Origin: a virus
Taxonomy: Duplodnaviria; Heunggongvirae; Uroviricota; Caudoviricetes
IMG/VR virus record: IMGVR_UViG_2802429217_000002
Location: 1 to 25,401 of that record
Direction: 5' to 3' (one strand)
DNA length: 25,401 bases
Positions 7,527-24,123 of the stretch are shown one piece after another. Position 1 is the stretch's first letter; every line of letters starts with the position of its first letter. A model generated the notes under the pieces. That model was given only the letters and a program-made list of their open reading frames with translations. It was not told the origin of the DNA and ran no database searches. The translations under genes were made by a program, and so were the position numbers.

Positions 7527-7626
7527 CAAGAGAAACAACGAACAGGCAGGACGCCCACGAAGTAGCCGCCTGGGGCATATGAAGTCCAGGATGATTCGTT
7601 GAGTCATGTTGTGCCACTAGGCACTC

Positions 7627-7923
7627 ATGTTAAAGCAGGTGTATGAAATGAAAGTCCAGATTTTAAACAATAACTGTGAAGTCGTTTGGTCATACGACAT
7701 AGCCGCCCCTGTAGATCAGAGCGGCGATAGCTGGACCAATGGGAAACATCAGATTATGGCTGGAGTTGTGTTCTCTTTACGCCGTGCTTTGGAACAGGCT
7801 GAAGTATTTCCATCAGACCCTGAATGGAAATGGCCTTTTTCTATTTGTCCAAATTCGGAGAGCACATTTCAGAAAATTGGTCAGAAAGTCGCACTCGAAG
7901 AGCATCAGCCAACTGTTTCCTGA
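7627..7923 (+). CDS. Hypothetical protein, first gene of PL-like operon
   Basis: 98-aa ORF downstream of PL-like promoter; no recognisable motif; competing small minus-strand ORFs overlap its 3' end. Confidence 0.35.
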   Translation: MLKQVYEMKVQILNNNCEVVWSYDIAAPVDQSGDSWTNGKHQIMAGVVFSLRRALEQAEVFPSDPEWKWPFSICPNSESTFQKIGQKVALEEHQPTVS

Positions 7924-8597: not shown

Positions 8598-9134
8598 ATG
8601 TCATTTATTAAAACTTTTTCCGGGAAGCATTTTTATTATGACAGGATAAATAAAGACGACATCGTTATTAACGATATCGCGGTTTCCCTTTCAAATATCT
8701 GTCGCTTTGCAGGACATCTTTCACACTTCTACAGTGTCGCCCAACATGCGGTGCTTTGCAGCCAGCTGGTGCCACAGGAATTTGCTTTTGAAGCGTTAAT
8801 GCATGATGCAACAGAAGCGTATTGCCAGGACATCCCGGCTCCACTGAAACGCCTTCTTCCTGACTATAAACGGATGGAAGAAAAAATAGACGCCGTAATC
8901 CGTGAGAAATACGGGTTACCCCCGGTTATGAGTACACCCGTGAAATATGCCGATCTCATCATGCTGGCAACCGAACGCCGCGATCTCGGGCTTGATGATG
9001 GCTCTTTCTGGCCTGTGCTGGAAGGTATCCCGGCAACAGAGATGTTCAACGTGATTCCACTGGCTCCAGGCCATGCCTACGGGATGTTTATGGAACGCTT
9101 TAACGAATTATCGGAGTTACGCAAATGCGCATAA
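8598..9134 (+). CDS. yfdR: HD-domain phosphohydrolase, YfdR-like
   Basis: ORF from MSFIKTFSGKHFYY with H...HD metal-binding motifs (LSHFYSVAQHAV, LMHDATEAY); GGAG RBS 6 nt upstream; matches my recollection of E. coli CPS-53 YfdR. Confidence 0.75.
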   Translation: MSFIKTFSGKHFYYDRINKDDIVINDIAVSLSNICRFAGHLSHFYSVAQHAVLCSQLVPQEFAFEALMHDATEAYCQDIPAPLKRLLPDYKRMEEKIDAVIREKYGLPPVMSTPVKYADLIMLATERRDLGLDDGSFWPVLEGIPATEMFNVIPLAPGHAYGMFMERFNELSELRKCA

Positions 9135-9487
9135 ATGTTTTCGAAATGGAAGGGTTTCTTCGCGGGAAATGTGTACCGCGAGATCTGAAAGTGAACGAAA
9201 CAAATGCTGAGTACCTGGTACGTAAATTCGACGCGCTTGAAGCTAAATGTGCGGCACTGGAAAGCAAAATAATACCAGTGTCAGCTGAACTGCCACCAGC
9301 AAATGAAAGTGTTCTGTTATTTGATGCTAACGGAGAAGGCTGGCTGATTGGCTGGCGTTCTCTCTGGTACACCTGGGGACAAAAAGAAACCGGAGAATGG
9401 CAGTGGACATTTCAGGTCGGGGACCTTGAAAACGTCAATATCACTCACTGGGCAGTAATGCCGAAAGCACCAGAGACTAAGAAATGA
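9125..9487 (+). CDS. Prophage protein, YfdS-like
   Basis: 120-aa ORF overlapping upstream stop; position after the yfdR-like gene. Confidence 0.5.
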   Translation: MRINVFEMEGFLRGKCVPRDLKVNETNAEYLVRKFDALEAKCAALESKIIPVSAELPPANESVLLFDANGEGWLIGWRSLWYTWGQKETGEWQWTFQVGDLENVNITHWAVMPKAPETKK

Positions 9488-9699
9488 GCGTGATAAAAAC
9501 TCATACAGGAATTGTTATCACCCGAGACGGTGAAAAGCGAATGAAATTACATTCCACTGAAACGTCCTGGGTTGCCGGACGTTGTGAATCCTACGACAAA
9601 AAGACTGGTTACCGTTGGGGGGCACCTAACATGCGTCGCCGTCTGCTACTGGACAGCATCAGGCCAATAAAACAGGTAGCAACCAGGGAACAAAATTAA
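9484..9699 (+). CDS. Small prophage protein (YfdT-like, tentative)
   Basis: 71-aa ORF with ATGA overlap to upstream gene. Confidence 0.45.
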   Translation: MSVIKTHTGIVITRDGEKRMKLHSTETSWVAGRCESYDKKTGYRWGAPNMRRRLLLDSIRPIKQVATREQN

Positions 9700-9758
9700 T
9701 TATCAGGACTGGAATTTGATATTACTGCCCGTGTGCAGCGGGCTAAGTGGAGAAACAT

Positions 9759-9965
9759 ATGCTGAACCTCGATTGTGTTCCAATCTCAACTTATTGCAAA
9801 GAAACTGGCGAAACTCCTGAAGCAATAAACAAACGTGTACAGCGCGGTGTTTGGCGTGAAGGTGTTCAGGTTTTAAAGGTTGAAGGCGTTAAGGAGAGGT
9901 GGATTGATCTTAGTGAGGTTGCAAAATGGGCCAGACAAAACTGCTCAAACTACCGCGCGGCGTAA
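9759..9965 (+). CDS. xis: Excisionase (Xis-like)
   Basis: ATG at 9759 with GGAGAA RBS (track ORF begins at a GTG at 9747); small basic protein overlapping the int start, the classic xis-int arrangement. Confidence 0.6.
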   Translation: MLNLDCVPISTYCKETGETPEAINKRVQRGVWREGVQVLKVEGVKERWIDLSEVAKWARQNCSNYRAA

Positions 9966-11092
9966 CAATCAGGAAACACCGCCAGGGCGAAACGATCAAT
10001 ATAACTTTCACCTACAAAGGAGTTAAATGTCGTGAGCCTCTTTCCAATCTGGAAGTAACACCAAAGAACATAAAATACGCCGAGCGCACACTCGGCGAAA
10101 TTCATAATAAGATCGAAAGGGGAACATTCATTTATGCGGAATATTTTCCCCGTTCTGCTCGTTTGAAAATTTTTGGTAATGCTGCTGCAGGCAAAACGGT
10201 AAAAATGTACCTGGACGAATACCTTGAAATCTGCGAAACGAGAAAACTTTCACCCTCTACGATTGGTGGTTATAAAAAATGCCGTAGTGCGTTAGCCTCA
10301 CTCCACATTTGCCCTGCAAGTGAATTAACACCAGCAATCCTGAAAGCGTGGATTCAAAGCCAGAAAACGACCTTAAAAACAATTCGCAACCAGTTATCTT
10401 TCCTGCGGTCAGCACTTGATGAAGCCGTAACCGATGGGGTACTTCAAATTAACCCCGTATCGTTGGTAACTGCTTCGCGCTACCAAAGTGATAAGTCAGA
10501 AGCAGAAAGCAGCTACGTGGTTGATCCGCTATCACCAGCAGAAGTTGATGCATTACTAGCAGCAGCCGGAAACAAACAATGGGAAAATCTGTTCCGGTTC
10601 GCTATACATACAGGCCTGCGTAGTTCTGAATTATGTGCCCTTCGATGGCGTGATATCGACTTTGTTGGAAAAACTGCCCATGTCCAGAGCGCAAGTGTTG
10701 TCGGTGTTATCAAAGGGACAAAGACAAAAGCAGGTACTCGGAAAGTTGAACTGACAGAAGAGGCAATGTTGGCGCTGATAAATCAGAAGCCATTTACATT
10801 CATGAAGGATGCTACTGTCTTTGAAGATCCAAAGACCAATAAGCCTTGGGCAAGTGCTGATGCAATTAGGAAAAAAGCATGGGTGCCAACATTGCGAAAA
10901 GCAGGTATTCGTTACAGAAACCCATATCAAACCAGGCATACATTCGCCACCAGCCATATCAGCCGAGGAGCAAACCTGTTTTGGCTTGCAGCTCAAATGG
11001 GGCATAAAGGGCCTGAGATGCTTTTCAGGCACTATGGCTCATATCTGAAGGAATATGATGGACAAACAAGCTTGAAGAAGATAACAATATAA
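9926..11092 (+). CDS. int: Tyrosine-type site-specific integrase (lambdoid Int with N-terminal arm-binding region)
   Basis: 388-aa ORF; catalytic-domain signatures RFAIHTGLRSSELCALRWRDID, HQTRHTFATSHISRGANLFWLAAQMGHKGPEMLFRHYGSY (R...HxxR...Y). Confidence 0.85.
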   Translation: MGQTKLLKLPRGVTIRKHRQGETINITFTYKGVKCREPLSNLEVTPKNIKYAERTLGEIHNKIERGTFIYAEYFPRSARLKIFGNAAAGKTVKMYLDEYLEICETRKLSPSTIGGYKKCRSALASLHICPASELTPAILKAWIQSQKTTLKTIRNQLSFLRSALDEAVTDGVLQINPVSLVTASRYQSDKSEAESSYVVDPLSPAEVDALLAAAGNKQWENLFRFAIHTGLRSSELCALRWRDIDFVGKTAHVQSASVVGVIKGTKTKAGTRKVELTEEAMLALINQKPFTFMKDATVFEDPKTNKPWASADAIRKKAWVPTLRKAGIRYRNPYQTRHTFATSHISRGANLFWLAAQMGHKGPEMLFRHYGSYLKEYDGQTSLKKITI

Positions 11093-11109
11093 TCCAAGCA
11101 TGAAACTAT

Positions 11110-11132
11110 TGGCCACAATTTGTGGCCATTTT
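11110..11132 (+). terminator. Rho-independent terminator after int (perfect 9-bp palindrome TGGCCACAA-t-TTGTGGCCA followed by TTTT)
   Basis: Palindrome at 11110-11128 followed by T-run 11129-11132. Confidence 0.5.
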
Positions 11133-11150
11133 ACGGAGCAAGATAGAAAC

Positions 11151-12884
11151 ATGGCAAATCAAATTACCAAACTAAAAAATATAAATGTTGTGAAGTTTCG
11201 CGGACTGAAAAATATAAACATCGAGTTTGGTTCTCGCCTAACTGTTATTTGTGGTAAAAATGGCACATCTAAATCCACAATTCTTGGCATTATCGCCCAA
11301 ATATTTAGCTTTACAAAGGACTTTACCAAAAACCCTGAGACTGATTTAACACAATATAAAACATTAACAAATGGCAGCTTCAAGTCAGCTTTCAGCGAAC
11401 ATTTTAGGCTTTCAGAACAATTTGATGTTCCTGGTTCAATGGACGTCAAAATTAGTGTCTATGATGGTGCATCGAACAAACATCTTGAAAAACTAACATT
11501 AGGTTTATACAGCTACAGTGACAGAGATAAATCAAGGCCTGTAGTCAGGGGAAATGATTCAATACCGGAAAAAAACCAAAGTAGAAACGTTACTCATCCT
11601 GTTATTTTTTTAAGCTTAGCACGACTTCTTCCTATTACATTAAGGACTGATTACTCAACACGGGATGTTCAGTACATCAATGAAAATTCTGATGAAATCA
11701 GAATGATGAGTAACCAACTCTTACTAAAAAACAATGGAAGCTCAGTAACAGCAACAAAAGGTACTATCGATTCAATGGTTGTCCATGGTGACAATTATGA
11801 TCACCAATCAGTATCTGTTGGTGAAGATAATGTTGGACAATTAATCCAAGCAATTTTTTCATTTAAAAGATTGAAGGAAACTTATTCTGATTATCATGGC
11901 GGAATATTGTTAATTGATGAAGCCGATGCAGGTCTTTTCCCTGCTGCACAGTTAGAGCTAATTAATATTCTAACTAAAGCAGCAAAACAATACGATCTGC
12001 AAATAATCATGACCTCGCACTCTCCATTAATAATAGAGGATATCTATAATCGTTCAAAACAAGATAGTGATAGCTTTAAAACAATATATCTTACAGACAC
12101 ATATGGAGATATTAAAACAAAGAATAATCTTTCATGGACAGATATCCACGCTGATTTACATGTTGAAACTGTAAAAATTAATGATGACATTTGTCTTCCA
12201 AAGGCAAATGTATATTTTGAAGACAAAGAAGGTTTCGACTTTTTCAAACAATTGATAACAGATCGAAAAATAAATAAAATATTAAATCCATTAGGGAATA
12301 TAAATATTAGCTGCTCTGCCATGCTTGACTTAATGGCAAGAAAAATACCAGAATTTACAGCTAAAAGCTTGATCGTCTTAGACGGTGATGTTGTTCACGA
12401 CAATAGTGCTAATGCAAAAAAAGCCAAAAAAGAAAAAAACTTATGTTTGCTTCCAAGCACCTTACCTCCAGACCAAATGATTTTTGAGTTTTTATATAAT
12501 TTACCACCTGATGATGCATATTGGGAAAATAAAAATAAATTTACAAAAGCTGTTTTTATGAAAACAGCTAAAGACATAATTGCAACGCTAAAAATTGGTA
12601 ACGCTCCGATTGATTTAAAAATCCTTATAGATAATTATAAAAAAGTTAACAAAAACCATGGCGGGATAGTTAGAAAACTGTTTAAAGATTTTGCACATAC
12701 GACTCAATTTCAGGCCCAAGTAAAAGGGCGAGTTAAAGATAACCCATATCGATATTGGGTCGAGAAAAATCCTGTGCAATCGGATAGCTTCAAGAATGAA
12801 CTAATAAAGAGTCTTAAAGTTATTATGACAAGTGGACATGGTGTCGATTCTGCTACCATCTCATCATATCTGTCAGATAACTAA
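11151..12884 (+). CDS. OLD-family nuclease: N-terminal ABC-type ATPase plus C-terminal Toprim domain
   Basis: Walker A GKNGTSKST, Walker B ILLIDEADAGLFP, H-loop TSHSP; C-terminal Toprim-like Glu (VYFEDKEGFDFF) and DxD (IVLDGDVVHD), paralleling P2 Old motifs; ATG at 11151 assumed so that the int terminator is non-coding (track ORF starts 11100); AT-rich. Confidence 0.75.
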   Translation: MANQITKLKNINVVKFRGLKNINIEFGSRLTVICGKNGTSKSTILGIIAQIFSFTKDFTKNPETDLTQYKTLTNGSFKSAFSEHFRLSEQFDVPGSMDVKISVYDGASNKHLEKLTLGLYSYSDRDKSRPVVRGNDSIPEKNQSRNVTHPVIFLSLARLLPITLRTDYSTRDVQYINENSDEIRMMSNQLLLKNNGSSVTATKGTIDSMVVHGDNYDHQSVSVGEDNVGQLIQAIFSFKRLKETYSDYHGGILLIDEADAGLFPAAQLELINILTKAAKQYDLQIIMTSHSPLIIEDIYNRSKQDSDSFKTIYLTDTYGDIKTKNNLSWTDIHADLHVETVKINDDICLPKANVYFEDKEGFDFFKQLITDRKINKILNPLGNINISCSAMLDLMARKIPEFTAKSLIVLDGDVVHDNSANAKKAKKEKNLCLLPSTLPPDQMIFEFLYNLPPDDAYWENKNKFTKAVFMKTAKDIIATLKIGNAPIDLKILIDNYKKVNKNHGGIVRKLFKDFAHTTQFQAQVKGRVKDNPYRYWVEKNPVQSDSFKNELIKSLKVIMTSGHGVDSATISSYLSDN

Positions 12885-12892
12885 TTGATTAA

Positions 12893-12929
12893 AAAGGGCT
12901 TTATGTGATGGCCACAAAGCCCTTTTTTT
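12893..12929 (+). terminator. Rho-independent terminator after OLD-family gene
   Basis: Stem gggcttt/aaagccc with 13-nt loop, followed by TTTTTTT. Confidence 0.65.
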
Positions 12930-12963
12930 GATATACTTTAGATCTGACATTTAGAGGTATCAT

Positions 12964-13863
12964 ATGCGTTTTAACACCCCACTTCGCTATCCTGGCGGTA
13001 AAGGCAAGCTTGCAAATTTCATGCTTCGGCTTATTGAAGAAAATAATCTTTCGCCTATACATTATGCCGAACCATATGCTGGGGGTGCTGGTTTAGCATT
13101 GAAACTGTTACATCTAAATGCAGCTGAAAAAATCATCCTTAATGATATTAATATTTCTGTTTATGCTTTTTGGCACAGTGTATTAAATCATGCAGATCAA
13201 TTATGTTCTTTAATTGAAAGAACTGAAGTTACAATGGATGAATGGTTTAGGCAGAAAGATATAATTAATAATCCTAAAGACCATGATCTTTTAACAATTG
13301 GTTTCTCAACCTTTTTTCTCAATAGAACAAATCGTTCTGGAATATTAAAAGGTGGAGTAATTGGCGGTAAAAATCAAGAAGGGAAATGGAAGCTTGACGC
13401 TCGCTATAATAAGAGTGATTTGATTTCTCGAATCCATAAAATATCAGAAAATCGTCACAGAATAGATTTATATAACATGGATGCAATTGATTTCATTAAA
13501 AAAATAGTTATTCAATTGCCACAAAACTCATTAACATATTTGGATCCACCTTATTACATAAAAGGTAAAGGTTTATATATCAACCATTATAATCATGATG
13601 ATCATGTTAGGGTTGCAAAAGTCGTACAGAATAATATTAAAACACCTTGGATTGTTTCTTACGATAACACTCCTGAGATCCAAGCTATGTATAAGACATC
13701 ATCATTAGTATATGGAATAAACTACAGTGCTCAAGATCGGTACAAAGGATCTGAGGTAATGTTCTTCAGTGAACGATTGAAAATCTTTAAAACAGATGAT
13801 CCAACTAAGGTAAAAGCGCCTGTATTTAAAAGAGGATGTGTTGACGACCACATCCAGACATAA
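12964..13863 (+). CDS. D12-class N6-adenine DNA methyltransferase (Dam family)
   Basis: Motifs LRYPGGKGK (Dam LKWAGGK), EPYAGGAGLAL (AdoMet binding), ILNDINISVYAFW, FFLNRTNRSG, LDPPYY (catalytic DPPY); AGAGG RBS; AT-rich. Confidence 0.85.
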   Translation: MRFNTPLRYPGGKGKLANFMLRLIEENNLSPIHYAEPYAGGAGLALKLLHLNAAEKIILNDINISVYAFWHSVLNHADQLCSLIERTEVTMDEWFRQKDIINNPKDHDLLTIGFSTFFLNRTNRSGILKGGVIGGKNQEGKWKLDARYNKSDLISRIHKISENRHRIDLYNMDAIDFIKKIVIQLPQNSLTYLDPPYYIKGKGLYINHYNHDDHVRVAKVVQNNIKTPWIVSYDNTPEIQAMYKTSSLVYGINYSAQDRYKGSEVMFFSERLKIFKTDDPTKVKAPVFKRGCVDDHIQT

Positions 13864-13935
13864 AAGGAGCCGCAAAAGATCCGCAGAATAAAATGGTTAG
13901 TATTAATCGTTTTATTTCAGCTAATTATAAAAATA

Positions 13936-13968
13936 CGGACTCGGGTTCAACTCCCGCCAGCTCCACCA
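13936..13968 (+). other. ssrA: Attachment-site core: copy of the 3'-terminal 33 nt of the tmRNA gene ssrA (cGGACtCGGGTTCAACTCCCGCCAGCTCCACCA); the rest of ssrA is absent here
   Basis: Near-identity to the known 3' end of E. coli tmRNA; upstream sequence is unrelated to tmRNA. Confidence 0.8.
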
Positions 13969-14002
13969 AATCATGATCCGGATACGTCCGGTGAAGCACA
14001 GA

Positions 14003-14036
14003 AAGCCCGCACGGCACAAGCCCTGCGGGCTTTTTT
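14003..14036 (+). terminator. Rho-independent terminator (ssrA-type trailer terminator)
   Basis: Stem gcccgca/tgcgggc with 12-nt loop followed by TTTTTT. Confidence 0.7.
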
Positions 14037-14078
14037 GTGTCTGTCGTTGTCCGAGAACATCCGGCTAAATCCAGAGAA

Positions 14079-14101
14079 AATTGGTACACGTTTAGGTACA
14101 C
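14079..14101. repeat. 23-bp direct repeat AATTGGTACACGTTTAGGTACAC, left copy (candidate integrase arm-type site / element boundary)
   Basis: Identical 23-mer recurs at 25064-25086; partial inverted copy GTGTACCAATT at 14126-14136. Confidence 0.7.
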
Positions 14102-14151
14102 GCTATACTGTGGTCCATTAAACGTGTACCAATTATGGAAGGGATCCAGAC

Positions 14152-15342
14152 ATGGCGCGTATCACACGCCCCCTCACTAACAATGAAATCCTTAAAGCCA
14201 AACCCCGTGAAAAAGACTTCACCCTTCATGATGGTGATGGCTTGTTCTTGCTCGTCAAAACCACTGGTAAAAAACTCTGGCGCTTCCGTTATCAACGACC
14301 GGGAAGCAGCAGCCGCACAAATTTGAGTCTCGGCTCATATCCTGCCCTTACACTCGCAGCAGCTCGTCAGATACGCGACCAGCACTTAACCACGCTTGCG
14401 CAAGGTATGGATCCGCAGCAGCAACAAGAGCAGGCATCAGAACAACGTCAGATTGAGTTGGATAGTATTTTCTCAACTGTGGCCGCCAACTGGTTCAAAA
14501 TGAAGAGCAAAAGTGTCACTGAAGACTACGCTAAAGATATTTGGCGCTCTTTGGATAAGGATGTGTTCCCTGCAATAGGCGCGATTCCTGTTCAGGAGAT
14601 TAAGGCCAGAACTATAGTTGAAGCGTTGGAACCAATCAAAGCACGAGGTGCATTAGAAACTGTTCGTCGCTTGGTCCAGCGCATTAACGAAATAATGATT
14701 TACGCAGTTAACACAGGCCTGATTGATGCTAATCCGGCATCGGGTGTCGGAATGGCATTTGAGAAACCGAAAAAGCAAAACATGCCGACACTTCGACCAG
14801 AAGAATTGCCAAAGCTCATGCGCTCTTTGGTGATGTCGAATCTCTCAGTTTCGACCCGCTGTCTAATTGAATGGCAACTCCTGACGCTCGTGCGTCCATC
14901 TGAGGCTTCTGGCGCTCGGTGGGTAGAGATCGATCTTGATGCCAGGCTCTGGACAATTCCAGCAGAGCGGATGAAAGCAAATCGAGAGCATATCGTTCCT
15001 TTATCAACCCAGGCGTTAGAAATTTTGGAAGTAATGAAGCCTATTAGTGCTCATCGTGAACATGTCTTCCCCAGTAGAAATGATCCCAAACAGCCAATGA
15101 ATAGCCAGACGGCGAACGCTGCCTTAAAGCGGATTGGTTATGGTGGAAAGTTGGTTGCACATGGTTTACGTTCAATTGCGAGTACAGCTATGAACGAGGC
15201 GGGATTCAATGCTGACGTCATTGAGTCTGCTCTAGCACACTCTGATAGAAATGAAGTTAGAAGAGCTTATAATCGTTCTACATATCTAGATAAAAAAATA
15301 ATACTATTTAACTGGTGGGGTGCACAGGTCTATAAGAAGTAA
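14152..15342 (+). CDS. int: P4-type tyrosine integrase (CP4-57 IntA-like)
   Basis: 396-aa ORF; N-terminus MARITRPLTNNEILKAKPREKDFTLHDGDGLFLLV typical of P4-family integrases; located about 180 nt downstream of the ssrA 3' end as intA is in E. coli K-12. Confidence 0.85.
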   Translation: MARITRPLTNNEILKAKPREKDFTLHDGDGLFLLVKTTGKKLWRFRYQRPGSSSRTNLSLGSYPALTLAAARQIRDQHLTTLAQGMDPQQQQEQASEQRQIELDSIFSTVAANWFKMKSKSVTEDYAKDIWRSLDKDVFPAIGAIPVQEIKARTIVEALEPIKARGALETVRRLVQRINEIMIYAVNTGLIDANPASGVGMAFEKPKKQNMPTLRPEELPKLMRSLVMSNLSVSTRCLIEWQLLTLVRPSEASGARWVEIDLDARLWTIPAERMKANREHIVPLSTQALEILEVMKPISAHREHVFPSRNDPKQPMNSQTANAALKRIGYGGKLVAHGLRSIASTAMNEAGFNADVIESALAHSDRNEVRRAYNRSTYLDKKIILFNWWGAQVYKK

Positions 15343-15346
15343 ATAG

Positions 15347-15366
15347 AGCCTGCTGAAATGCAGGCT
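15347..15366. terminator. Hairpin between convergent int and hotspot gene (possible bidirectional terminator)
   Basis: Stem agcctgc/gcaggct with 6-nt loop; weak T-runs on both sides. Confidence 0.4.
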
Positions 15367-15374
15367 CCACTTCT

Positions 15375-18011
15375 TTATTCAGTAAATATTACATCATCAA
15401 TATTAAAAGACACTTTAAAATTAGGGTAGAGTTTCAATATTACCTTTTCGAAAATCTCATCATCATCATTTAAATTTCTTGCTCTTGAATAAAGACGGTA
15501 ATTATCTTTTGTTATTTGTTTAATTTCGATATGACAAGCATCATTACTATCAAAGCCTCTAAAGAAGGTAAAACTATCCAAACTTACAGCATAAATATTA
15601 TTCAAGGCATTTTCGTCCTCAAAGAAGTAAGTTAACTTATAATCCTTATAAACTTCATAATTATAGTTCTTAACTGAATTTTTATTCACAAATAATATAT
15701 AATTACTCTTCTCTATATCAGCATCATTAAATTTTAAAAAACGCCCTCCTGCTTTGACACAATTGAATAATTGCTGCTTATATATAGATATGATTCCATC
15801 GCCATATAGCCCAGCACTTGATAAATATGAAACATCATCAACCACGCCTAAAAACTCACGTTTTGATGGATAAAAAATTAGTTCACTTGTTTTATGGCAT
15901 ATAGGAAGCTTGGATAAATCAACATTTAATGTACTAACAAGCCATTTATTTAAATGTAAATTCACATCTATTTTAAAGCGTAATACAATGTTCTTATCCA
16001 TTGTCGATTTTATAACTTTTCTCGTAACTTCTTTGCTCTTATACTCCAACATCATATCAAATTTATCTTTAATTAAATCCACTTCCCTTTTCACTTCATT
16101 ATTATCATACCCCATAGATGTTACCATTATATCTAATTCAGGAGACTCACACGCTTTAATTAGCAGGTGATAGTCGTTAGAACTAAATCCCACCACATCG
16201 ACTAATTTACGCCAGTCGTACAAGTATCTCAGGTTAAACCCTCTACGTTTTACAGCCAAAACCAATAATATAAAGACTAATGCTCTTATTGCATAGTGAT
16301 ATTCTGTAACAGTATAGGCCTCACCTTCCGGGAGATTTCTAATTCGTTGTTCATCTATACTTGCACGAATTCTTTCTTCATAAGAACCAAATAACATTCC
16401 ATATAACTCAATTTCATCTGTATAATTAGAAAAGATAGCAAGATCGCTCCACAATTTGCTAGCATTAATTATCGCATCGATCTCCACGTCACTTTTATTG
16501 TCAGTTTGAATTGCGCTCCAACGCATCTGAAGAACAGTTAAAACAAACCGCTGAATTTTAAATATAACAGAAATAATTTCGCTAGCATTTCTTTTTTCTA
16601 AATTCAAATACTTGACACTAAGATGCTTAGTTCCTGCATTAAAGTAATCCCCCCAAAACATTATCGCACTGTAATCTAACTCATTGCATGCAGATTCAAT
16701 CAACCCTTTAATGACTTCATAATAGTCTGCGTTATCATCGTGATAACTCAAATAACTATTCAAGGTATCTTCATGATTTTTGATAAAAGCATTAAAGTCA
16801 TCTCTATTTAAAGAGAGTTTTGCTATCTGTATTATAAATTCTAACGCGGCAGTTTTCTTTCTAAGATTAACATTCAACTCAGAAAAATTATTCATTAACT
16901 CATCAATAGAATTTTTTTTCACATCCGAATTATTTAAATATTGATATGACAGTCCAAAAGCTATATCAAAAGGATATGCTGAAACATCCCCATTAACTAA
17001 GCATGAAAAAACATTAATAGCATTTCTTATTGACTCTCTGTTATTTTCCAAAAGAGCACTATACAGATAGATGACAACCCCATTAATTAATTCATCATAA
17101 TGATTAATCACTTTAAATTCATTATCTGTTATTAACACACCAACAATCAAAGAAGAAACTTTCTTTGATGATTTTTTATCCAAAATTTTTTTAGCCGTAT
17201 AATTAACTTCTATAGTTTTGCTTCCACTACTATGCAGGTTAATATTTGGCACAATAATTTCATATTCATCCAATAAACCTTTTATCTTCATTCCATTTAA
17301 AAAATTGTTTAGTTTATGGAATTTCTCTAAATCTATGTCAACAGTCAAAACATTATCACCCCCATATATCCCTATGCTATATGGTTGTTGCTTTTGCATT
17401 TTCATTTTGCCATAAGAATAATATCCATTTGGTAAATCTCTAACTAGATTTAAAATCTTATCATGTAATTCAGAGTTAGCATCCTCTAACAAGGTATAAC
17501 CCTTGACAAGACTTGAGCAGTGAGATTGTAAATACTCAACAGCGAAGTTCTTATTACGTGACATGTTAAATAATTTCAAGTATGTTTTAAAATACTTCAA
17601 AAGAAAATACATTGATAGTAATTGTGACACCACATACTGAGCAATACCACCACCAAAAACAAAAAAGAAGAATGAAATTATCAAGGTTGATATTGCATCA
17701 ATACCAAACTGCACAAGGTTGATTTCATCCAGTATCTTTTTCCTAATATAACTTTCCAACGCATGAGGTGAGGATTTATTAACAGCATCAACAGTCACAC
17801 TCATAAAAGTTAATGACAACGCACTGATTGTACCGTGTATACCTAAGGAGACCCCCCAAGCACTAAATATCCAATCAAACCCCAATTTTTTTAAATCACT
17901 AGAATTAGAAAACAACCACCACCACTCATTTTTACAAAAAAAAACAAGAATACATAAAGTAAAAAAAATAAAAAAACCAGAGATATAACAAAACAATCTT
18001 TTACCCATCAT
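15375..18011 (-). CDS. Uncharacterised 878-aa protein with N-terminal transmembrane segments; hotspot cargo, candidate anti-phage defense protein
   Basis: Uninterrupted ORF; AAGGA RBS; N-terminal hydrophobic stretches (FCYISGFFIFFTLCILVFF, WIFSAWGVSLGIHGTISALSLTFM, AISTLIISFFFFVFGGGIAQYVV); very AT-rich versus the GC-rich P4 core genes; lies between int and cos where P4 carries gop/beta/cII. Confidence 0.7.
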   Translation of the reverse strand: MMGKRLFCYISGFFIFFTLCILVFFCKNEWWWLFSNSSDLKKLGFDWIFSAWGVSLGIHGTISALSLTFMSVTVDAVNKSSPHALESYIRKKILDEINLVQFGIDAISTLIISFFFFVFGGGIAQYVVSQLLSMYFLLKYFKTYLKLFNMSRNKNFAVEYLQSHCSSLVKGYTLLEDANSELHDKILNLVRDLPNGYYSYGKMKMQKQQPYSIGIYGGDNVLTVDIDLEKFHKLNNFLNGMKIKGLLDEYEIIVPNINLHSSGSKTIEVNYTAKKILDKKSSKKVSSLIVGVLITDNEFKVINHYDELINGVVIYLYSALLENNRESIRNAINVFSCLVNGDVSAYPFDIAFGLSYQYLNNSDVKKNSIDELMNNFSELNVNLRKKTAALEFIIQIAKLSLNRDDFNAFIKNHEDTLNSYLSYHDDNADYYEVIKGLIESACNELDYSAIMFWGDYFNAGTKHLSVKYLNLEKRNASEIISVIFKIQRFVLTVLQMRWSAIQTDNKSDVEIDAIINASKLWSDLAIFSNYTDEIELYGMLFGSYEERIRASIDEQRIRNLPEGEAYTVTEYHYAIRALVFILLVLAVKRRGFNLRYLYDWRKLVDVVGFSSNDYHLLIKACESPELDIMVTSMGYDNNEVKREVDLIKDKFDMMLEYKSKEVTRKVIKSTMDKNIVLRFKIDVNLHLNKWLVSTLNVDLSKLPICHKTSELIFYPSKREFLGVVDDVSYLSSAGLYGDGIISIYKQQLFNCVKAGGRFLKFNDADIEKSNYILFVNKNSVKNYNYEVYKDYKLTYFFEDENALNNIYAVSLDSFTFFRGFDSNDACHIEIKQITKDNYRLYSRARNLNDDDEIFEKVILKLYPNFKVSFNIDDVIFTE

Positions 18012-18119
18012 TCGTCCTTATGTTTTTTGGGTATTGTAAACCAAAGATAAAACCCTCTATGGTTTTGCATGCCCTGTATATTGATTTGTGTAAATTAGCT
18101 CATTACCAATTAGCGCGCA

Positions 18120-18138
18120 ATGCTCTCCCCGCCACGCC
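18120..18138. other. cos-like site (reverse complement GGCGTGGCGGGGAGAGCAT, 16/19 match to the P2/P4 cohesive end GGCGAGGCGGGGAAAGCAC as I recall it)
   Basis: Read from the sequence; located next to psu as in P4. Confidence 0.5.
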
Positions 18139-18236
18139 TGCCCGCTTAAGAGGTCACTTTTAATGCAGGTGCATGACCCGACTCAGGCCGCGCCGGTACT
18201 GGTGTTGCGTGGGATAAAAAATACGAGGATTTGCAT

Positions 18237-18312: not shown

Positions 18313-18879
18313 CTACCGTGCGGCCAGTTCTGCACGTCGGCGGGTGTAAATCAGGTTCTGTGCCGGGGTGAATTTCTGGCGATTATCATCCCGCGAGGCC
18401 GCATCAGGCCTGAATCCGATAGCCGTTAAAATGTCGCTGTCCTGCGCGGAATAATTAATTTTTTCACCTGCGGCCAGCCACACCGACAGGGCTTCACGCA
18501 GATAATCAACCGAGTGCTGCATGGCGCTCTGTTTTACTGCGGGAATTTGTTCGTGATATCCCATCAGCTCAGGCGCCAGCGTGGCGGCCAGATCCGCGCC
18601 GTGCTGCTGCATAAAGTCATGGAGCCGGTTGCGGATGCTGATGTGCTGCACTTCCTCATGTGAGCGGATATAGCGACCGGCAGCCTGATTAATCACCCAT
18701 TTTTTCACGTCGATATTGTCGCGCAAATCCTGCATTCTGCGCGGGATTTGTTCGTCACCAGCAAGGAGCTGTTCACGGTATTCAAGCTCAAGGTCAGCCA
18801 GTTCGGCTTTACGTTTCAGCCAAGTGTTTTTGTTCGTCTGACAGGCCTCAAAGGCCTGCTGCAATGTCACAGTGGTCAC
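18313..18879 (-). CDS. psu: Polarity suppression protein Psu
   Basis: 188-aa ORF; MTTVTLQQAFEAC..., YIRSHEEVQHISIRNRLHDFMQQHG, KINYSAQDSDILTAIGFRPD closely parallel P4 Psu as I recall it. Confidence 0.85.
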   Translation of the reverse strand: MTTVTLQQAFEACQTNKNTWLKRKAELADLELEYREQLLAGDEQIPRRMQDLRDNIDVKKWVINQAAGRYIRSHEEVQHISIRNRLHDFMQQHGADLAATLAPELMGYHEQIPAVKQSAMQHSVDYLREALSVWLAAGEKINYSAQDSDILTAIGFRPDAASRDDNRQKFTPAQNLIYTRRRAELAAR

Positions 18880-18894: not shown

Positions 18895-19134
18895 TTAATG
18901 CCGGAACGGCGAGCTGTAGCAGCCCTGTACTTTACGCGGCGGCGGTGGCGTCACCGGTGCGGGGTCGGTTTTTTCCGGTGCGGCACGTATCACACCGTCA
19001 ACCGACTCGATGGTGCGGAAAGTGGCCGAGCATTCGATATTGGTACACTGGTGATAACGTTGTTTGACGTTTTCCGACAGATAACGGCTGGTACGGACGT
19101 GCGCGGTCTTTTTGCAGAACGGACAGTGAAACAT
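18895..19134 (-). CDS. delta: Ogr/Delta-family zinc-finger late transcription activator
   Basis: 79-aa ORF MFHCPFCKKTAHVRTSRYLSENVKQRYHQCTNIECSATF matches the P2 Ogr CxxC...CxxC motif. Confidence 0.85.
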   Translation of the reverse strand: MFHCPFCKKTAHVRTSRYLSENVKQRYHQCTNIECSATFRTIESVDGVIRAAPEKTDPAPVTPPPPRKVQGCYSSPFRH

Positions 19135-19137: not shown

Positions 19138-19881
19138 TCAGCCCTCTGCCTGTTCGTGGTCTTTTGCGGCCAGTTCAGCGGCAAGCTTCATCCGTCTGGC
19201 GGGGCTTCTTAACAGCGCCATATCAACCCCGGTTATGACCGGGCGATTCATGCCCGTTACGGACAGAACCGGTTCCTGCTCCATATCGAAATGATACAGG
19301 GCTGACTGTAGATTCAGGGCATCGCCCAGCTCGCGGGTCACGGTCGCACGCGGCGAGGTTTCTCCGCTCATTTCCAGCGACCGTATACGCAACAGGAAGG
19401 CACGTAACAGTGCAGGGCTGATACCGGCCAGCACTTTCTTCCATTCGCTGTTGGCGTAAGTGGTGAATGCTTTTTCGTGGGCGCTGATATAAGCCGTACC
19501 GGAGGAGCATGCGCCAAGCATGGCGAGGCCTTTGTCTTTCTCCAGCTCGGTAATCAGACCGGTGAACTCATCAGCCAGTTCTCGGCTGGCGATACGTTTA
19601 CTGTGTTCAGCTTTCAGTTCAGGAGTGAGGTTGCCGCGCAGGGTTCGAAAGCGGCTGCGCCAGTCCTGTTCGGCCTGTGCGCTTTCACTGAGGGCAGTCT
19701 GTCGTTCCTGCTCACAACGCTGAATGGAAGCCTCAATGTCGCTGAGTTTACCCATGCTGGCCGTGTGTGCGTCTTTTGCTTCGTTAAGTGCGGCCAGCGC
19801 ACCGGCAATACGTTGTTCCGCGCCTTCATCCTGTTTACTGATAACGGTCTGCATGGCTTTGATAATGAGTTCGGGTTTCAT
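19138..19881 (-). CDS. sid: Capsid size determination protein Sid (P4-like)
   Basis: Position upstream of delta and psu in one operon; coiled-coil-like Ala/Glu-rich sequence; ATG at 19881 with GGAGAG RBS preferred over 19947 because the late-promoter activator site sits at 19954-19971. Confidence 0.7.
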   Translation of the reverse strand: MKPELIIKAMQTVISKQDEGAEQRIAGALAALNEAKDAHTASMGKLSDIEASIQRCEQERQTALSESAQAEQDWRSRFRTLRGNLTPELKAEHSKRIASRELADEFTGLITELEKDKGLAMLGACSSGTAYISAHEKAFTTYANSEWKKVLAGISPALLRAFLLRIRSLEMSGETSPRATVTRELGDALNLQSALYHFDMEQEPVLSVTGMNRPVITGVDMALLRSPARRMKLAAELAAKDHEQAEG

Positions 19882-19904
19882 GTTCAGGCTCTCCGTGTGT
19901 TCAA

Positions 19905-19971
19905 CCTGAAATGATTCTGACGCCTCCTGCACAACAACACGATTCATTGCCGTTGTCAGAGTGCTGGCACA
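19905..19971 (-). promoter_or_regulatory. P4 Psid-type late promoter with Ogr/Delta binding site TGT-N12-ACA
   Basis: TGT(19954-19956)-N12-ACA(19969-19971) dyad; its centre lies about 56 nt upstream of the predicted start, with a -10-like CAGAAT. Confidence 0.6.
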
Positions 19972-20422: not shown

Positions 20423-20689
20423 ATGCACACCGCTTTTTCTTCCCCGTCTTCTACCCCTGCCGCGCCGCTGATGCCGGTTTCTGATACCGTTCACGAACGC
20501 TTTATCCGTCTGCCCGAAGTGATGCATCTGTGCGGCCTGTCCCGCTCGACCATTTACGACCTCATCAGCCGGGAAGCCTTCCCGAAACAAATCTCCCTCG
20601 GCGGGAAAAATGTGGCGTGGGCGCAGTCTGAAATCACTGCATGGATGGCGGATCGCATTGCCGAACGTAACCGGGGCTATGACGCATGA
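20423..20689 (+). CDS. alpA: AlpA-family phage regulatory protein / excisionase
   Basis: [55 protein letters not shown] matches the AlpA/Vis HTH family; GAGG RBS. Confidence 0.7.
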
Positions 20690-21027
20690 TGATGACCGTT
20701 CAGCAAACAGCCCCTTTTTCTGGCTTGCTTCTTTTCGCCGTTTCCAGGTATAGTTTTCCCGCTGTCGCAAAATCGGCAGCCGGGCGTAGGAACCCGTGTT
20801 TAACTATGGCGACACCGGACGCGCCTTGCGTCTTTTTTTGTGTCTGTGCCTTGATGCACCCATTCAATACACAGTGGCCTTTTCGCCATTGTGGGTATCG
20901 CGTAATGGTGGCTCAGGCGGGGCAGCCTTCGGGCTGGCCGGTTCTCATAGTTACCGGTATTCCTACCCCCGTCTGGGCTACCACCCATGAGCGTAGGAAC
21001 TCCGATGGTAGCTGTAACCAGCTAACT

Positions 21028-21237
21028 ATGGAGGTTGCCCTTATGGCTATGACCCTCACCCCGTCACACCCGCAGTTTGTCTTTGTGTTTGCCGCCGTTC
21101 GTCGCGCAGACCGTAAACCCCGTATTTGCATGCTGCGCACCGTTGCCGGTGACGAGCACGCCGCACGCCTTTCCCTCGTTCGCGATTACATCCTCTCGTT
21201 CGCTGGCCGTTTGCCGGTTCTGGAGGTGCGCGCATGA
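21028..21237 (+). CDS. Small hypothetical protein of the P4-like early operon (tentative)
   Basis: Internal ATG of track ORF 20686-21237; upstream part of that ORF looks non-coding (repeats and hairpins). Confidence 0.3.
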
Positions 21238-21789: not shown

Positions 21790-24123
21790 ATGAAAATGAA
21801 CGTAACGGACACCGTAAAACAGGCGTGCGGCCACTGGCCGCGCATTCTCCCGGCGCTGGGGGTAACGGTCATCAAAAACCGCCATCTGACCTGTCCGGTG
21901 TGTGGCGGCTCCGACCGCTTTCGCTTTGACGATAAAGAGGGACGCGGGACGTGGTTCTGCAATCAGTGCGGCGCGGGTGACGGGCTTAAGCTGGTAGAAA
22001 AAGTGTTTGGCGTGACCCCGTCAGAGGCGGCCGGGAAGGTGAACGCCGAGACCGGCAACCTGCCGCCGGTTGCCCCGGAAGTGATTGCGGTCGCAGAGGC
22101 TGAAACGGAGGCCGACCGCAAAGCGGCGGCCACGCTGGCCGTCAGGCTCATGGAGAAAACCCGACCAGCCACCAGCAATGCCTACCTCACCTGCAAGGGT
22201 TTCCCCGCTCTGGAATGTCTGACGCTCACCGCCATGCATAAAACCGGCGGCGTGACGTTCCGCGCCGGGGATGTGGTTGTCCCGCTGTATGACAATACCG
22301 GCGTACTGGTTAACCTTCAGCTTATCAATGCAGACGGTCTCAAACGCACCCTGAAAGGCGGGCAGGTCAAAGGGGCATGTCATATCATCGAAGGGAAAAA
22401 ACAGGCCGGAAAACGCCTGTGGATTGCGGAGGGTTATGCGACCGCGCTCACCGTGCATCACCTGACAGGGGAAACCGTCATGGTGGCGCTGTCCTCCGTG
22501 AACCTCCTTTCTCTGGCAAGCCTTGCCCGTCAGAAATATCCGGCCTGTCAGATTGTCCTGGCCGCCGACCGTGACCTTAACGGCGACGGCCAGAGTAAAG
22601 CCGCTGCGGCCGCAGATGCCTGTGAGGGCATTGTTGCCCTGCCGCCGGTGTTCGGTGACTGGAATGATGCGTTTATGCAGAAAGGTGAAGAAGCCACCCG
22701 GAAAGCCATTTATGACGCCATCCGGCCACCGGCGCAAAGTCCGTTCGACACCATGAGCGAGGCGGAATTTACCGCCATGAGCGCCAGCGACAAGGCTTTG
22801 CGGGTGCATGAGCACTACAGCGAAGCGCTGGCGGTGGATGCTAACGGCCAGCTCCTGTCCCGCTATGAAAACGGCATCTGGAAAAATATCCCTGCCGCCA
22901 CTTTTTCACGGAATGTGGCTGATTTATTCCAGCGCCTGCGCGCCCCGTTCTCGTCAGGGAAAATTGCCTCGGTGGTCGAGACCCTGAAACTGATTATTCC
23001 GCAGCAGGATACACCGGCGCGCCGTCTGATTGGCTTTCGCAATGGGGAACTCGATACCCAAAGTGGCCTGTTCAGCCCGCACAGTAAATCGCACTGGCTG
23101 CGCACGCTGTGCGACGTGGATTTCACCCCGCCGGTGGACGGAGAAACGCTGGAGACTTACGCGACGAACTTCTGGCGCTGGCTCGACCGTGCGGCCGGTA
23201 AAAATCCCCAAAAACGCGATGTGATTCTGGCTGCGCTGTTTATGGTGCTGGCGAACCGCTACGACTGGCAGCTCTTTCTCGAAGTCACCGGTCCCGGCGG
23301 GAGCGGCAAAAGTATTCTGGCCGAAATCGCGACCCTGCTCGCCGGGGAAGATAATGCCACGTCAGCCGATATCGACACACTGGAAGACCCGCGCAAGCGT
23401 GCCTCCCTGATTGGCTTCTCGCTAATCCGTCTGCCAGACCAGGAAAAATGGAGCGGTGACGGCGCAGGACTCAAGGCCATCACCGGCGGCGATGCAGTTT
23501 CAGTTGACCCGAAATACCAGAATCCGTACTCAACGCATATTCCGGCGGTGATTCTGGCCGTGAACAATAACCCGATGCGCTTCACCGACCGCAGCGGCGG
23601 CGTCTCCCGTCGCCGGGTGATTATTCATTTCCCGGAGCAGATTGCCCCGGAGGAACGCGACCCGCAGCTCAGGGATAAAATTGCACGCGAGCTGGCCGTC
23701 ATCGTGCGCCAGCTTATGCAGAAATTCAGCGACCCGATGACCGCGCGCGCACTGCTCCAGTCGCAGCAGAACTCCGACGAGGCACTCAGCATTATGCGCG
23801 ATGCTGACCCGACGTTTGATTTTTGCGGCTATCTGGAGATGCTCCCGCAGACCAACGGGATGTTTATGGGGAATGCCAGCATCATCCCGCGTAATTATCG
23901 TAAATATCTCTATCATGCGTATCTGGCCTATATGGAGGCTAACGGATACAGGAACGTGCTCAGCCTGAAAATGTTCGGGCTGGGGCTGCCCATGATGCTG
24001 AAAGAGTACGGCCTGAATTATGAGAAGCGGCACACCAAGCAGGGGATACAAACCAACCTGTCGCTGAAAGAGGAAAGCTACGGCGACTGGCTGCCGAAGT
24101 GTGACGCCCCCACAGCGACATAA
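21790..24123 (+). CDS. alpha: P4 alpha-type bifunctional DNA primase/helicase
   Basis: 777-aa ORF; N-terminal zinc-binding CPVCGG...CNQCG, central toprim-like region, C-terminal P-loop VTGPGGSGKS; length matches P4 alpha as I recall it. Confidence 0.9.
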   Translation: MKMNVTDTVKQACGHWPRILPALGVTVIKNRHLTCPVCGGSDRFRFDDKEGRGTWFCNQCGAGDGLKLVEKVFGVTPSEAAGKVNAETGNLPPVAPEVIAVAEAETEADRKAAATLAVRLMEKTRPATSNAYLTCKGFPALECLTLTAMHKTGGVTFRAGDVVVPLYDNTGVLVNLQLINADGLKRTLKGGQVKGACHIIEGKKQAGKRLWIAEGYATALTVHHLTGETVMVALSSVNLLSLASLARQKYPACQIVLAADRDLNGDGQSKAAAAADACEGIVALPPVFGDWNDAFMQKGEEATRKAIYDAIRPPAQSPFDTMSEAEFTAMSASDKALRVHEHYSEALAVDANGQLLSRYENGIWKNIPAATFSRNVADLFQRLRAPFSSGKIASVVETLKLIIPQQDTPARRLIGFRNGELDTQSGLFSPHSKSHWLRTLCDVDFTPPVDGETLETYATNFWRWLDRAAGKNPQKRDVILAALFMVLANRYDWQLFLEVTGPGGSGKSILAEIATLLAGEDNATSADIDTLEDPRKRASLIGFSLIRLPDQEKWSGDGAGLKAITGGDAVSVDPKYQNPYSTHIPAVILAVNNNPMRFTDRSGGVSRRRVIIHFPEQIAPEERDPQLRDKIARELAVIVRQLMQKFSDPMTARALLQSQQNSDEALSIMRDADPTFDFCGYLEMLPQTNGMFMGNASIIPRNYRKYLYHAYLAYMEANGYRNVLSLKMFGLGLPMMLKEYGLNYEKRHTKQGIQTNLSLKEESYGDWLPKCDAPTAT

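What the first reader, a model, noticed from the sequence alone, without database searches (positions are those of the whole stretch)
15375..18011. Large AT-rich membrane-anchored protein in the P4-like int-to-cos hotspot: candidate single-gene defense system
An uninterrupted 878-codon ORF with its own promoter-like sequence and SD occupies the variable region between the P4-type integrase and the cos/psu end. This is the position where P4 carries gop/beta/cII and where P4-like satellites are known to carry anti-phage systems. Its composition is strikingly AT-rich against GC-rich core genes. The protein has about three N-terminal transmembrane helices followed by a roughly 700-aa soluble region in which I find no Walker A, HNH, PD-(D/E)xK, HEPN-like Rx4-6H or other familiar catalytic signature, so it may be an undescribed effector.
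Basis: partly seen in the sequence, partly recalled or inferred. Interest (0 to 1): 0.8.

Follow-up and report, generated by a model that had tools for sequence, protein, structure and literature searches.

The report
Orphan membrane protein in P4/P2 defence hotspots
A real, well-conserved gene for a four-helix membrane protein of unknown fold sits alone in the anti-phage cargo slot of a P4-like satellite; its distant relatives fill the matching slot of P2-like prophages, so it is a strong but untested candidate for a new single-gene phage-defence family.

Summary
The ORF is real: 15375-18011, minus strand, 878 codons, 30% GC against 47% for the window. It is the only gene between the P4-type integrase and the cos site.

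It is under purifying selection (dN/dS 0.17 against a 63%-identical orthologue in the same slot). It has no Pfam, NCBIfam or PADLOC match, and no informative PDB or BFVD fold match.

An exhaustive HMMER scan of 1.84 billion representatives found only 29 relatives. The 4 close relatives whose flanks could be read sit in P4-like satellites next to int (psu or delta on the other side). The roughly 20 distant relatives (15-19% identity) sit alone between gpA and portal/ogr of P2-like prophages. One is chromosomal in Pantoea, and one close relative lies on a contig too short to read.

The model (pLDDT 81) shows four N-terminal TM helices, then an α/β domain, a long helical region and a C-terminal α/β domain, probably cytoplasmic. 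The TM module is the most conserved part, with an invariant His-Gly-Thr in TM2.

Rousset et al. 2022 already list it, unannotated and apparently untested, as P4 system 71 and P2 system 27.

Best reading: an anti-phage membrane protein with a cytoplasmic sensor and a membrane effector. Function is inferred, not shown.

The parts
15375..18011 (-). Single cargo gene of the hotspot: an 878-codon ORF. The likely true start is the second ATG at 18008, giving 877 aa. Stop codon at 15375-15377.
   Evidence: dN/dS 0.17 against the 63%-identical orthologue
17556..18011 (-). N-terminal membrane module, aa 1-152, with four TM helices. TM1 is variable. TM2 carries invariant H59-G60-T61. TM3 and TM4 form a hairpin joined by a G120-x-G122 turn. 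This is the most conserved part of the family.
   Evidence: AF2 model; positive-inside counts; conservation by region and by helix face
15378..17555 (-). Predicted cytoplasmic region, aa 153-878. It comprises a long helix (156-192), an α/β domain (196-296), an all-α repeat-like region (300-700) and a C-terminal α/β domain (700-878). Conserved residues outside the membrane module are L161, Y423, R497, E510, W521, Y537, F541, K717, R718 and Y807, plus a column that is Gly in ≥90% of the family but Asn (N805) in this protein.
   Evidence: no informative fold match
18015..18019 (-). Shine-Dalgarno AAGGA, 6 nt upstream of the second ATG.
   Evidence: read from the sequence
15341..15372 (.). G+C-rich hairpin between the convergent int and cargo genes. 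It is terminator-like on both strands.
18120..18140 (-). cos site of the satellite. The right end of the P4 genome aligns here, and GGCGTGGCGGGGAGAGCAT resembles the P2/P4 cohesive end (that comparison is from memory).
14152..15342 (+). P4-type tyrosine integrase, the left border of the hotspot.
18313..18879 (-). psu, the right border of the hotspot beyond cos.
13936..13968 (+). Copy of the 3' end of ssrA, the satellite's left attachment site.

Best explanation
The ORF encodes a genuine inner-membrane protein of a small orphan family. The family travels as a solitary cargo gene in the two antiviral hotspots of the P2/P4 helper-satellite pair: int-cos in P4, and gpA-portal/ogr in P2.

It most likely protects the lysogen against other phages. 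Proposed mechanism:
1. The large, fast-evolving region of about 720 aa (α/β domain, helical repeats, α/β domain) faces the cytoplasm and senses an infection cue.
2. The strongly conserved four-helix membrane bundle, built around an almost invariant TM2 carrying His-Gly-Thr, is the effector. It either opens or perturbs the inner membrane (depolarising abortive infection) or blocks a membrane step of infection.

Shown: the gene is real, selected, AT-rich foreign cargo. The hotspot association holds across the whole family. The TM module is the conserved core. No known domain is present.

Inferred: the N-in/C-in four-TM topology, the split into sensor and effector, and the defence function itself.

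My estimates are about 0.6-0.65 that it is an anti-phage or exclusion function of some kind, and about 0.35 for the specific sensor-plus-membrane-effector abortive mechanism. The confidence given for this explanation (0.5) refers to 'anti-phage protein acting through its membrane module'.
For: **The gene is real and selected.**
- dN/dS is 0.17 at dS 1.5 against the orthologue in L003. The value is lowest in the TM module (0.11) and the C-terminal domain (0.10).
- All 25 fetched loci hold intact ORFs of 878-961 aa at 30-33% GC, against flanks of 45-57%.

**The family is isolated and rare.**
- There are 29 hits among 1.84 billion representatives.
- It occurs in 3 (P4 type) and 19 (one P2-type allele) of 5426 complete E. 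coli genomes.

**The context is consistent.**
- P4 type: the window, L001/L002, L003, L005, L014 and L015 all lie next to int, with psu or delta on the other side.
- P2 type: L006-L012 and L016-L029 each sit as a single gene between gpA and portal/ogr. That is the tin/old position described as a defence hotspot in PMC9122126.

**The base rate is favourable.** 6 of 8 randomly chosen unknown P4-hotspot loci defended (bioRxiv 10.64898/2026.02.27.708500).

**Architecture.**
- The AF2 model has pLDDT 81 and pTM 0.64.
- K+R counts per segment are: N-tail 4.0, loop1 1.2, loop2 3.8, TM3-TM4 turn 0, and positive after TM4. This gives N-in, C-in.

**The TM module is more than an anchor.**
- Mean pairwise identity is 41% there, against 15-23% elsewhere.
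- 22 of the 33 columns conserved at ≥90% fall in aa 47-147.
- TM2 residues 56-70 are nearly invariant. TM3 and TM4 are conserved on one helical face (p ≤ 0.002). TM1 is variable.
Against: - No phenotype exists. Neither this protein nor its P2-type relative appears among the systems tested in Rousset 2022. It was also not found in the supplements of two later screens.
- There is no homology to any known defence protein. All 20 family members are negative in PADLOC.
- No catalytic or pore-forming fold was recognised. Fold hits are generic helical bundles or ARM/HEAT-like repeats.
- The topology rests on a charge rule and a predicted model, not on a dedicated predictor or an experiment.
- No convincing promoter was found.
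- Coarse dN/dS shows no positive selection in the putative sensor.
- A few nonsense or frameshift alleles exist (L032, L033, ETEC1734).
Confidence: 0.5

Rival explanations
1. Superinfection exclusion without cell death. The membrane module interferes with genome injection, or with a host membrane protein that incoming phages use, as small Sie/Imm-type prophage proteins do. The large domain only modulates or stabilises it.
For: - It is an inner-membrane protein encoded by a prophage or satellite.
- The TM module is the most conserved part, which would fit binding a conserved host membrane partner.
- The hotspot position is equally compatible with exclusion.
Against: - Known exclusion proteins are small (from general knowledge). 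Here about 720 conserved-length residues lie on the predicted cytoplasmic side, and they are under purifying selection. That is hard to explain for a simple entry block.
- No homology to any exclusion protein was found.
Confidence: 0.2
2. A non-defence accessory (moron) function. Examples are a membrane protein that changes host physiology or the envelope, helps the element's own life cycle, or acts as a counter-defence.
For: - Not every hotspot locus defends: 2 of 8 unknown P4 loci and 3 of 11 partial systems gave no phenotype.
- No defence-type domain was found.
Against: - It occupies the same slot in two unrelated element types (P4 and P2) whose slots are dominated by antiviral systems (PMC9122126).
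- It is absent from 50,697 deposited phage genomes and 72,556 plasmids.
- It is too rare to be a core life-cycle function (3 and 19 of 5426 genomes).
Confidence: 0.15
3. One component of a larger system whose partner lies elsewhere: a host factor, or another gene of the element.
For: Many membrane effectors in defence, such as KwaA, RexB and the TM partners in Rousset's systems, work with a separate sensor protein.
Against: - In every locus read it is the only gene in the slot.
- Its neighbours differ completely between P4 and P2.
- The Pantoea chromosomal copy is also solitary, next to an IS3 transposase.
- Its length is constant at 878-961 aa with all regions retained.
Confidence: 0.07
4. 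A non-functional or decaying AT-rich ORF that stays open by chance.
For: There are occasional in-frame stop alleles (L032, L033) and a 2-nt-shorter copy annotated as two CDS in ETEC1734.
Against: - A 2.6-kb open frame at 30% GC is very unlikely by chance.
- dN/dS is 0.17 at saturating dS.
- 25 of 25 fetched loci and 21 of 22 complete-genome copies are intact.
- A confident AF2 model emerged once 20 homologues were aligned.
Confidence: 0.02

Closest known systems
Rousset et al. 2022 hotspot catalogue: P4 'system 71' (WP_124064400, no Pfam, 4 TM, 7 occurrences) and P2 'system 27' (no Pfam, 3 TM, 131 occurrences)
   Same: The P4 entry is this very protein: the printed stretch (cut at about 400 residues) matches the window protein except H83R. 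The P2 entry carries the family's LGIHGTIAALSITFMGMFV signature.
   Different: The two entries are listed separately and unannotated, and they are not linked to each other. They do not appear in the table of tested systems. The family relationship, the structure model, the topology and the conservation pattern are new here.
Kiwa (KwaA four-TM protein plus KwaB) and lambda RexB/RexA
   Same: The logic is the same: a four-TM membrane component coupled to a cytoplasmic component that responds to infection. Both occur in prophages, satellites or defence islands. Kiwa also occurs in the P4 hotspot (passage).
   Different: Here everything is one polypeptide. No PADLOC hit to any Kiwa model was found in any of 20 members. 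hhalign against lambda RexB and RexA gives probability below 1%.
P4 gop/beta/cII and P2 tin/old
   Same: The genomic slot is identical: int-cos in P4, gpA-Q in P2. Each is lysogen-expressed cargo that excludes other phages (PMC9122126).
   Different: There is no sequence or domain similarity. Those proteins are soluble, and old is an ATPase-Toprim nuclease. No P-loop is present here.
Hotspot systems with TM effectors (Hydrolase+3TM, RT-nitrilase+TM, 2TM-1TM-TIR; Rousset 2022) and Gao Tmn (TM-containing KAP NTPase)
   Same: All are membrane-associated candidate abortive-infection effectors carried by the same elements.
   Different: All of those have a recognisable enzymatic or NTPase partner or domain. 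This protein has none.

Membership tests
P4-like satellite int-psu/cos defence-hotspot cargo (positional class, Rousset 2022) | Lies between the P4-type integrase and cos/psu of a P4-like element. | tested here: met
   int 14152-15342, psu 18313-18879, cos about 18120-18140, alpha 21790-24123. The layout is the same in E2, ETEC1732, L003 and L014; L005 and L015 keep int and delta but show no psu.
P4-like satellite int-psu/cos defence-hotspot cargo (positional class, Rousset 2022) | Variable, horizontally acquired content with atypical composition. | tested here: met
   30% GC against about 50-60% for the core. Only 3 of 5426 complete E. coli genomes carry it.
P4-like satellite int-psu/cos defence-hotspot cargo (positional class, Rousset 2022) | Confers resistance to phage infection. 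| not testable with these tools
   This needs plaque and growth assays. No published test was found.
Kiwa | KwaA-type four-TM protein together with a DUF4868 KwaB. | tested here: not met
   No PADLOC or Pfam hit in any of the 20 members. The locus holds a single gene.
RexAB | Homology to RexB (four TM) and/or RexA. | tested here: not met
   hhalign of the family profile gives probability 0.9% against lambda RexB and 0.1% against RexA.
Tmn / KAP or STAND NTPase-type single-gene sensors | Walker A P-loop NTPase domain. | tested here: not met
   No [AG]x4GK[ST] motif. No NTPase Pfam hit. The iSTAND hit is in 1 of 20 members at E = 0.004, which I take as chance.
AbiEi (weak PADLOC hit) | A consistent match to the AbiEi profile across family members, and an AbiEii partner. 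| tested here: not met
   E = 8.8e-4 at 16 bits in the window protein only, 1 of 20 members. There is no neighbouring gene.
PD-(D/E)xK nuclease | Conserved D...(D/E)xK catalytic motif in an α/β fold. | tested here: not met
   The D813/E829/K831 string is present in the window protein, but it is not conserved beyond the close P4-type relatives. There is no nuclease fold hit.
PHROG 18005 / 10073 (prophage proteins of unknown function) | A significant profile match. | tested here: met
   phrog_18005 at E = 1.8e-23 over aa 32-339, and phrog_10073 at E = 2.4e-5 over aa 125-738. Both are annotated 'unknown function', so membership adds no functional information.

The most novel reading that the evidence does not exclude
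This is the founding description of a new single-polypeptide membrane immunity family that is shared, through ancient divergence rather than recent exchange, by helper phage P2 and its satellite P4. Its conserved four-helix module, with an invariant membrane-embedded His-Gly-Thr, would be a new kind of gated pore or proton-leak effector, controlled by a fast-evolving cytoplasmic sensor of novel fold.
Probability: 0.3. Interest if true: 0.75.

Novelty: new variant of a known kind. Interest (0 to 1): 0.55.

Why it matters
- If it defends, it adds a defence family with no detectable relationship to any catalogued system. It would offer a compact one-gene model for how a cytoplasmic sensor is coupled to a membrane effector.
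- It is also one of the few cargo families found in both P2 and P4 hotspots. The two elements are reported almost never to exchange defence genes (abstract). The 15-19% identity between the P2 and P4 clades points to old, independent residence rather than recent swapping, which bears on how these hotspots are stocked.
- In practice the gene is easy to test: a single gene, E. coli origin, with obvious point mutants (H59, G60, T61, K717).

Tried and rejected
- **Word-indexed homologue search.** Run twice, with the single protein and with the 20-sequence profile, it returned only two close clusters. The low-complexity composition saturates the candidate list. The exhaustive HMMER search was needed.
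- **First AF2 run.** Three close sequences gave an unusable model, pLDDT 37.
- **Fold searches on the good model.**
  - Foldseek against PDB: nothing at E < 1e-3, only ARM/HEAT-like solenoids with TM-scores of at most 0.17.
  - BFVD: nothing.
  - AFDB libraries were unavailable.
- **PDB sequence profile search.** Nothing found.
- **Weak hits rejected as chance.** AbiEi, AvrM_N and iSTAND each matched one member only.
- **PD-(D/E)xK-like string at 813-831.** Rejected because it is not conserved.
- **Apparent two-gene 'split' versions (369+543 aa and 396+513 aa).** I first considered these natural fissions marking a domain boundary. Both turned out to be single in-frame stop codons in an otherwise continuous frame, so they are nonsense alleles.
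- **tblastn against deposited phage genomes and plasmids.** No match for either the P4-type or the P2-type proteins.
- **RexA/RexB relationship.** Rejected by hhalign.
- **Promoter.** The scan gives no more hits than shuffled sequence and none upstream of the start.
- **Literature.** The supplements of the 2026 P4/P2 preprint and of DefensePredictor held as text contain no trace of the protein.
Full report
**1. The observation**

It is strikingly AT-rich. The gene is 30.2% GC (26.5% at third codon positions) against 46.8% for the window, and the P4 core genes beside it run at 49-62%.

Its neighbours are as follows.
- On the left: a P4-type tyrosine integrase at 14152-15342 (+).
- On the right: psu (18313-18879), delta (18895-19134) and a sid-like gene (19138-19947).
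- Further right: alpA, an Ash/Icd-like gene and the alpha primase-helicase (21790-24123).

The right end of the P4 genome aligns to about window 18140, where a cos-like GGCGTGGCGGGGAGAGCAT is read. The ORF is therefore the only gene between int and cos.

The window has no tmRNA gene. A copy of the ssrA 3' end lies at about 13936-13968, and the same satellite abuts ssrA in E. coli E2. In this window a second prophage is integrated in tandem to the left.

A G+C-rich hairpin at 15341-15372 separates the convergent int and cargo genes.

- The Shine-Dalgarno AAGGA (18015-18019) is better spaced for the second ATG at 18008, and homologues begin MGKR. The protein is probably 877 aa.
- No sigma-70-like promoter upstream passes the scan, which finds no more sites than in shuffled sequence.
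- The protein has four TM helices rather than about three.
- A D...ExK-like string exists near the C-terminus but is not conserved.

**2. A real, selected gene of an orphan family**

Pfam, NCBIfam and PADLOC give nothing credible. Two PHROG families of unknown function match: phrog_18005 at E = 1.8e-23 and phrog_10073 at E = 2.4e-5.

The word-indexed search found only two close clusters, at 95% and 63% identity. An exhaustive HMMER scan of 1.84 billion representative proteins found just 29 relatives. About 20 of these are full length, at 860-960 aa.

Against the 63%-identical orthologue, dN/dS is 0.17 at dS of about 1.5. It is lowest in the membrane module (0.11) and the C-terminal domain (0.10).

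All 25 fetched loci contain an intact ORF of 878-961 aa. Each is 30-33% GC, in flanks of 45-57%.

The exceptions are few.
- Two metagenomic alleles carry a single in-frame stop.
- One copy, in ETEC1734, is 2 nt shorter and annotated as two CDS.

**3. Context across the family**

This is the most informative result.

The close relatives lie in P4-like satellites next to int, with psu or delta on the other side.
- The same gene in E. coli E2 and ETEC1732.
- The 63% orthologue in L003, at ssrA.
- The 27% relative in L005.
- The IMG/VR contigs L014 (identical) and L015 (33%).
- The 33% relative P0003 (L004) lies on a 3.1-kb contig too short to read its context.

The distant relatives (15-19% identity) each lie as a single gene between the replication gene gpA and portal Q, sometimes with ogr in between, in P2-like prophages. 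These are five representatives looked up individually, fourteen IMG/VR contigs and an E. coli allele. That position is where P2 carries tin and old, and Rousset et al. 2022 (PMC9122126) describe it as the P2 antiviral hotspot.

One copy, in Pantoea allii, is chromosomal and lies beside an IS3 transposase.

In complete E. coli genomes the P4 type occurs in 3 of 5426 and one P2-type allele in 19 of 5426. All are annotated 'hypothetical protein'. No copy was found in 50,697 deposited phage genomes or 72,556 plasmids.

**4. Structure and conservation**

With 20 homologues aligned, AlphaFold2 gives a usable model (pLDDT 81, pTM 0.64).
- Helices 2-26, 43-80, 99-119 and 123-152.
- A long helix at 156-192.
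- An α/β domain at 196-296.
- An all-α region at 300-700.
- A C-terminal α/β domain at 700-878.

Family-wide K+R counts are: N-terminal tail 4.0, loop1 1.2, loop2 3.8, the TM3-TM4 Gly turn 0, and a positive stretch after TM4. These fit an N-in, four-TM, C-in topology. The 720-aa region is therefore probably cytoplasmic. This is an inference.

The membrane module is the conserved core.
- Mean pairwise identity is 41% there, against 15-23% elsewhere.
- 22 of the 33 columns conserved at ≥90% lie in aa 47-147.
- TM2 residues 56-70, including H59-G60-T61, are nearly invariant on all faces.
- TM3 and TM4 are conserved on one helical face (permutation p ≤ 0.002).
- TM1 is variable.

That pattern is not what a passive anchor shows.

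Outside the membrane, the columns conserved at ≥90% are L161, Y423, R497, E510, W521, Y537, F541, K717, R718 and Y807, plus a Gly column that is Asn (N805) in the window protein.

Fold searches found nothing informative.
- Foldseek against PDB: no hit at E < 1e-3, only solenoid-like matches.
- BFVD: nothing.
- PDB sequence profile: nothing.

All 20 members are negative in PADLOC and Pfam apart from single-member chance hits.

**5. Mechanism**

The best-supported reading is an anti-phage protein acting at the inner membrane.
- The position in two independent antiviral hotspots, the foreign composition and the rarity all fit defence cargo.
- In a recent screen, 6 of 8 randomly chosen unknown P4-hotspot loci defended.
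- A highly conserved membrane bundle joined to a faster-evolving cytoplasmic region suggests an effector-plus-sensor protein. It would depolarise or permeabilise the membrane on sensing infection.
- Exclusion at the entry step is the main alternative.

None of this has been shown experimentally. My estimate is about 0.6-0.65 for an anti-phage or exclusion function of some kind, and about 0.35 for the specific abortive membrane-effector model.

**6. Comparison with what is known**

The protein is not new to the literature as a sequence.
- Rousset et al. 2022 Table S1 lists WP_124064400 under 'hypothetical'.
- Table S1B lists it as system 71 (no Pfam, 7 occurrences, '4 TM').
- Table S5B lists a P2-type relative as system 27 (no Pfam, 131 occurrences, '3 TM').

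Neither signature peptide occurs in their table of tested systems. I also found no trace in the supplements of the 2026 P4/P2 preprint or of DefensePredictor.

In logic it resembles four-TM-plus-partner systems such as Kiwa and RexAB, but it is not a member of either. There is no PADLOC hit, and hhalign probability against RexB and RexA is below 1%. It lacks the P-loop of Tmn/KAP-type sensors.

**7. Verdict**

- The interpretation as a candidate single-gene defence system is partly supported. The family-wide hotspot association strengthens it, but no functional evidence exists.
- The unifying findings are new here: one family in both the P2 and P4 hotspots, four TM helices with an invariant His-Gly-Thr, a novel cytoplasmic fold, and purifying selection.
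- The kind of thing, unannotated hotspot cargo with TM helices, is familiar, and the sequence is already catalogued.
- I score interest at 0.55 and novelty as a new variant of a known kind.

Noticed in passing
window 11100-12884 (+) and 12964-13863 (+): An AT-rich pair (30-36% GC) lies just downstream of a second integrase (9926-11092) and upstream of the satellite's attachment site. The first gene is an AAA_15/AAA_21 ATPase with PtuA-, AriA- and GajA-like hits. The second is a D12 adenine methylase that matches PADLOC PD-Lambda-5_B over its full length (E = 5e-124). This is probably a PD-lambda-5-type defence pair carried by the neighbouring prophage. Whether the ATPase is the cognate PD-Lambda-5_A was not resolved.
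   Followed up: partly
window 24565-25065 (+): A 166-aa ORF just downstream of the alpha primase matches the PADLOC type II methyl-directed restriction enzyme model (mREase_II) over its full length (E = 6e-99). It looks like a second defence cargo at the other end of the same satellite.
   Followed up: partly
window 20761-20838 and 20901-20988 (+): Rfam finds isrK and the C4 antisense RNA, the P4 immunity RNAs. Both lie inside the span of the ORF called 20686-21237 (Ash/Icd-like).
   Followed up: no
window 13936-14154: A 99%-identical copy of the last ~33 nt of ssrA plus the ssrA-int spacer. The satellite and the prophage to its left are therefore integrated in tandem at ssrA, as in ETEC1732.
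   Followed up: partly
L032 2502-2801; L033 1380-1640: Two metagenomic relatives are called as two genes (369+543 aa and 396+513 aa). Each is interrupted by a single in-frame stop codon in an otherwise continuous frame. They are nonsense alleles or assembly errors, not natural gene fissions.
   Followed up: yes
NZ_CP122801.1 (ETEC1734) 1221432-1224066: This copy of the gene is 2 nt shorter than in the sister strain ETEC1732 and is annotated as two hypothetical proteins. It is either a frameshift or a homopolymer sequencing error.
   Followed up: no
L013 7887-10706 (Pantoea allii LMG 24248): This is the only family member found among 100,044 species-representative genomes with the peptide pattern used. 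It is chromosomal rather than in a P2 or P4 element. It lies between folD/DUF1198 and an IS3 transposase, and an AAA_21/AAA_15 ATPase sits beside cysS about 3 kb away.
   Followed up: partly
family level (A2; L003-L029): The P4-hotspot clade and the P2-hotspot clade share only 15-19% identity, apart from an almost identical TM2. This is an old shared cargo family in two elements that are reported almost never to exchange defence genes.
   Followed up: partly
window 1-9900: The left part of the window is a different prophage with DUF968, YfdQ-type and HTH genes. About 95% of window 1-14100 is found at 97.7% identity in a few E. coli genomes. It was not analysed further.
   Followed up: no
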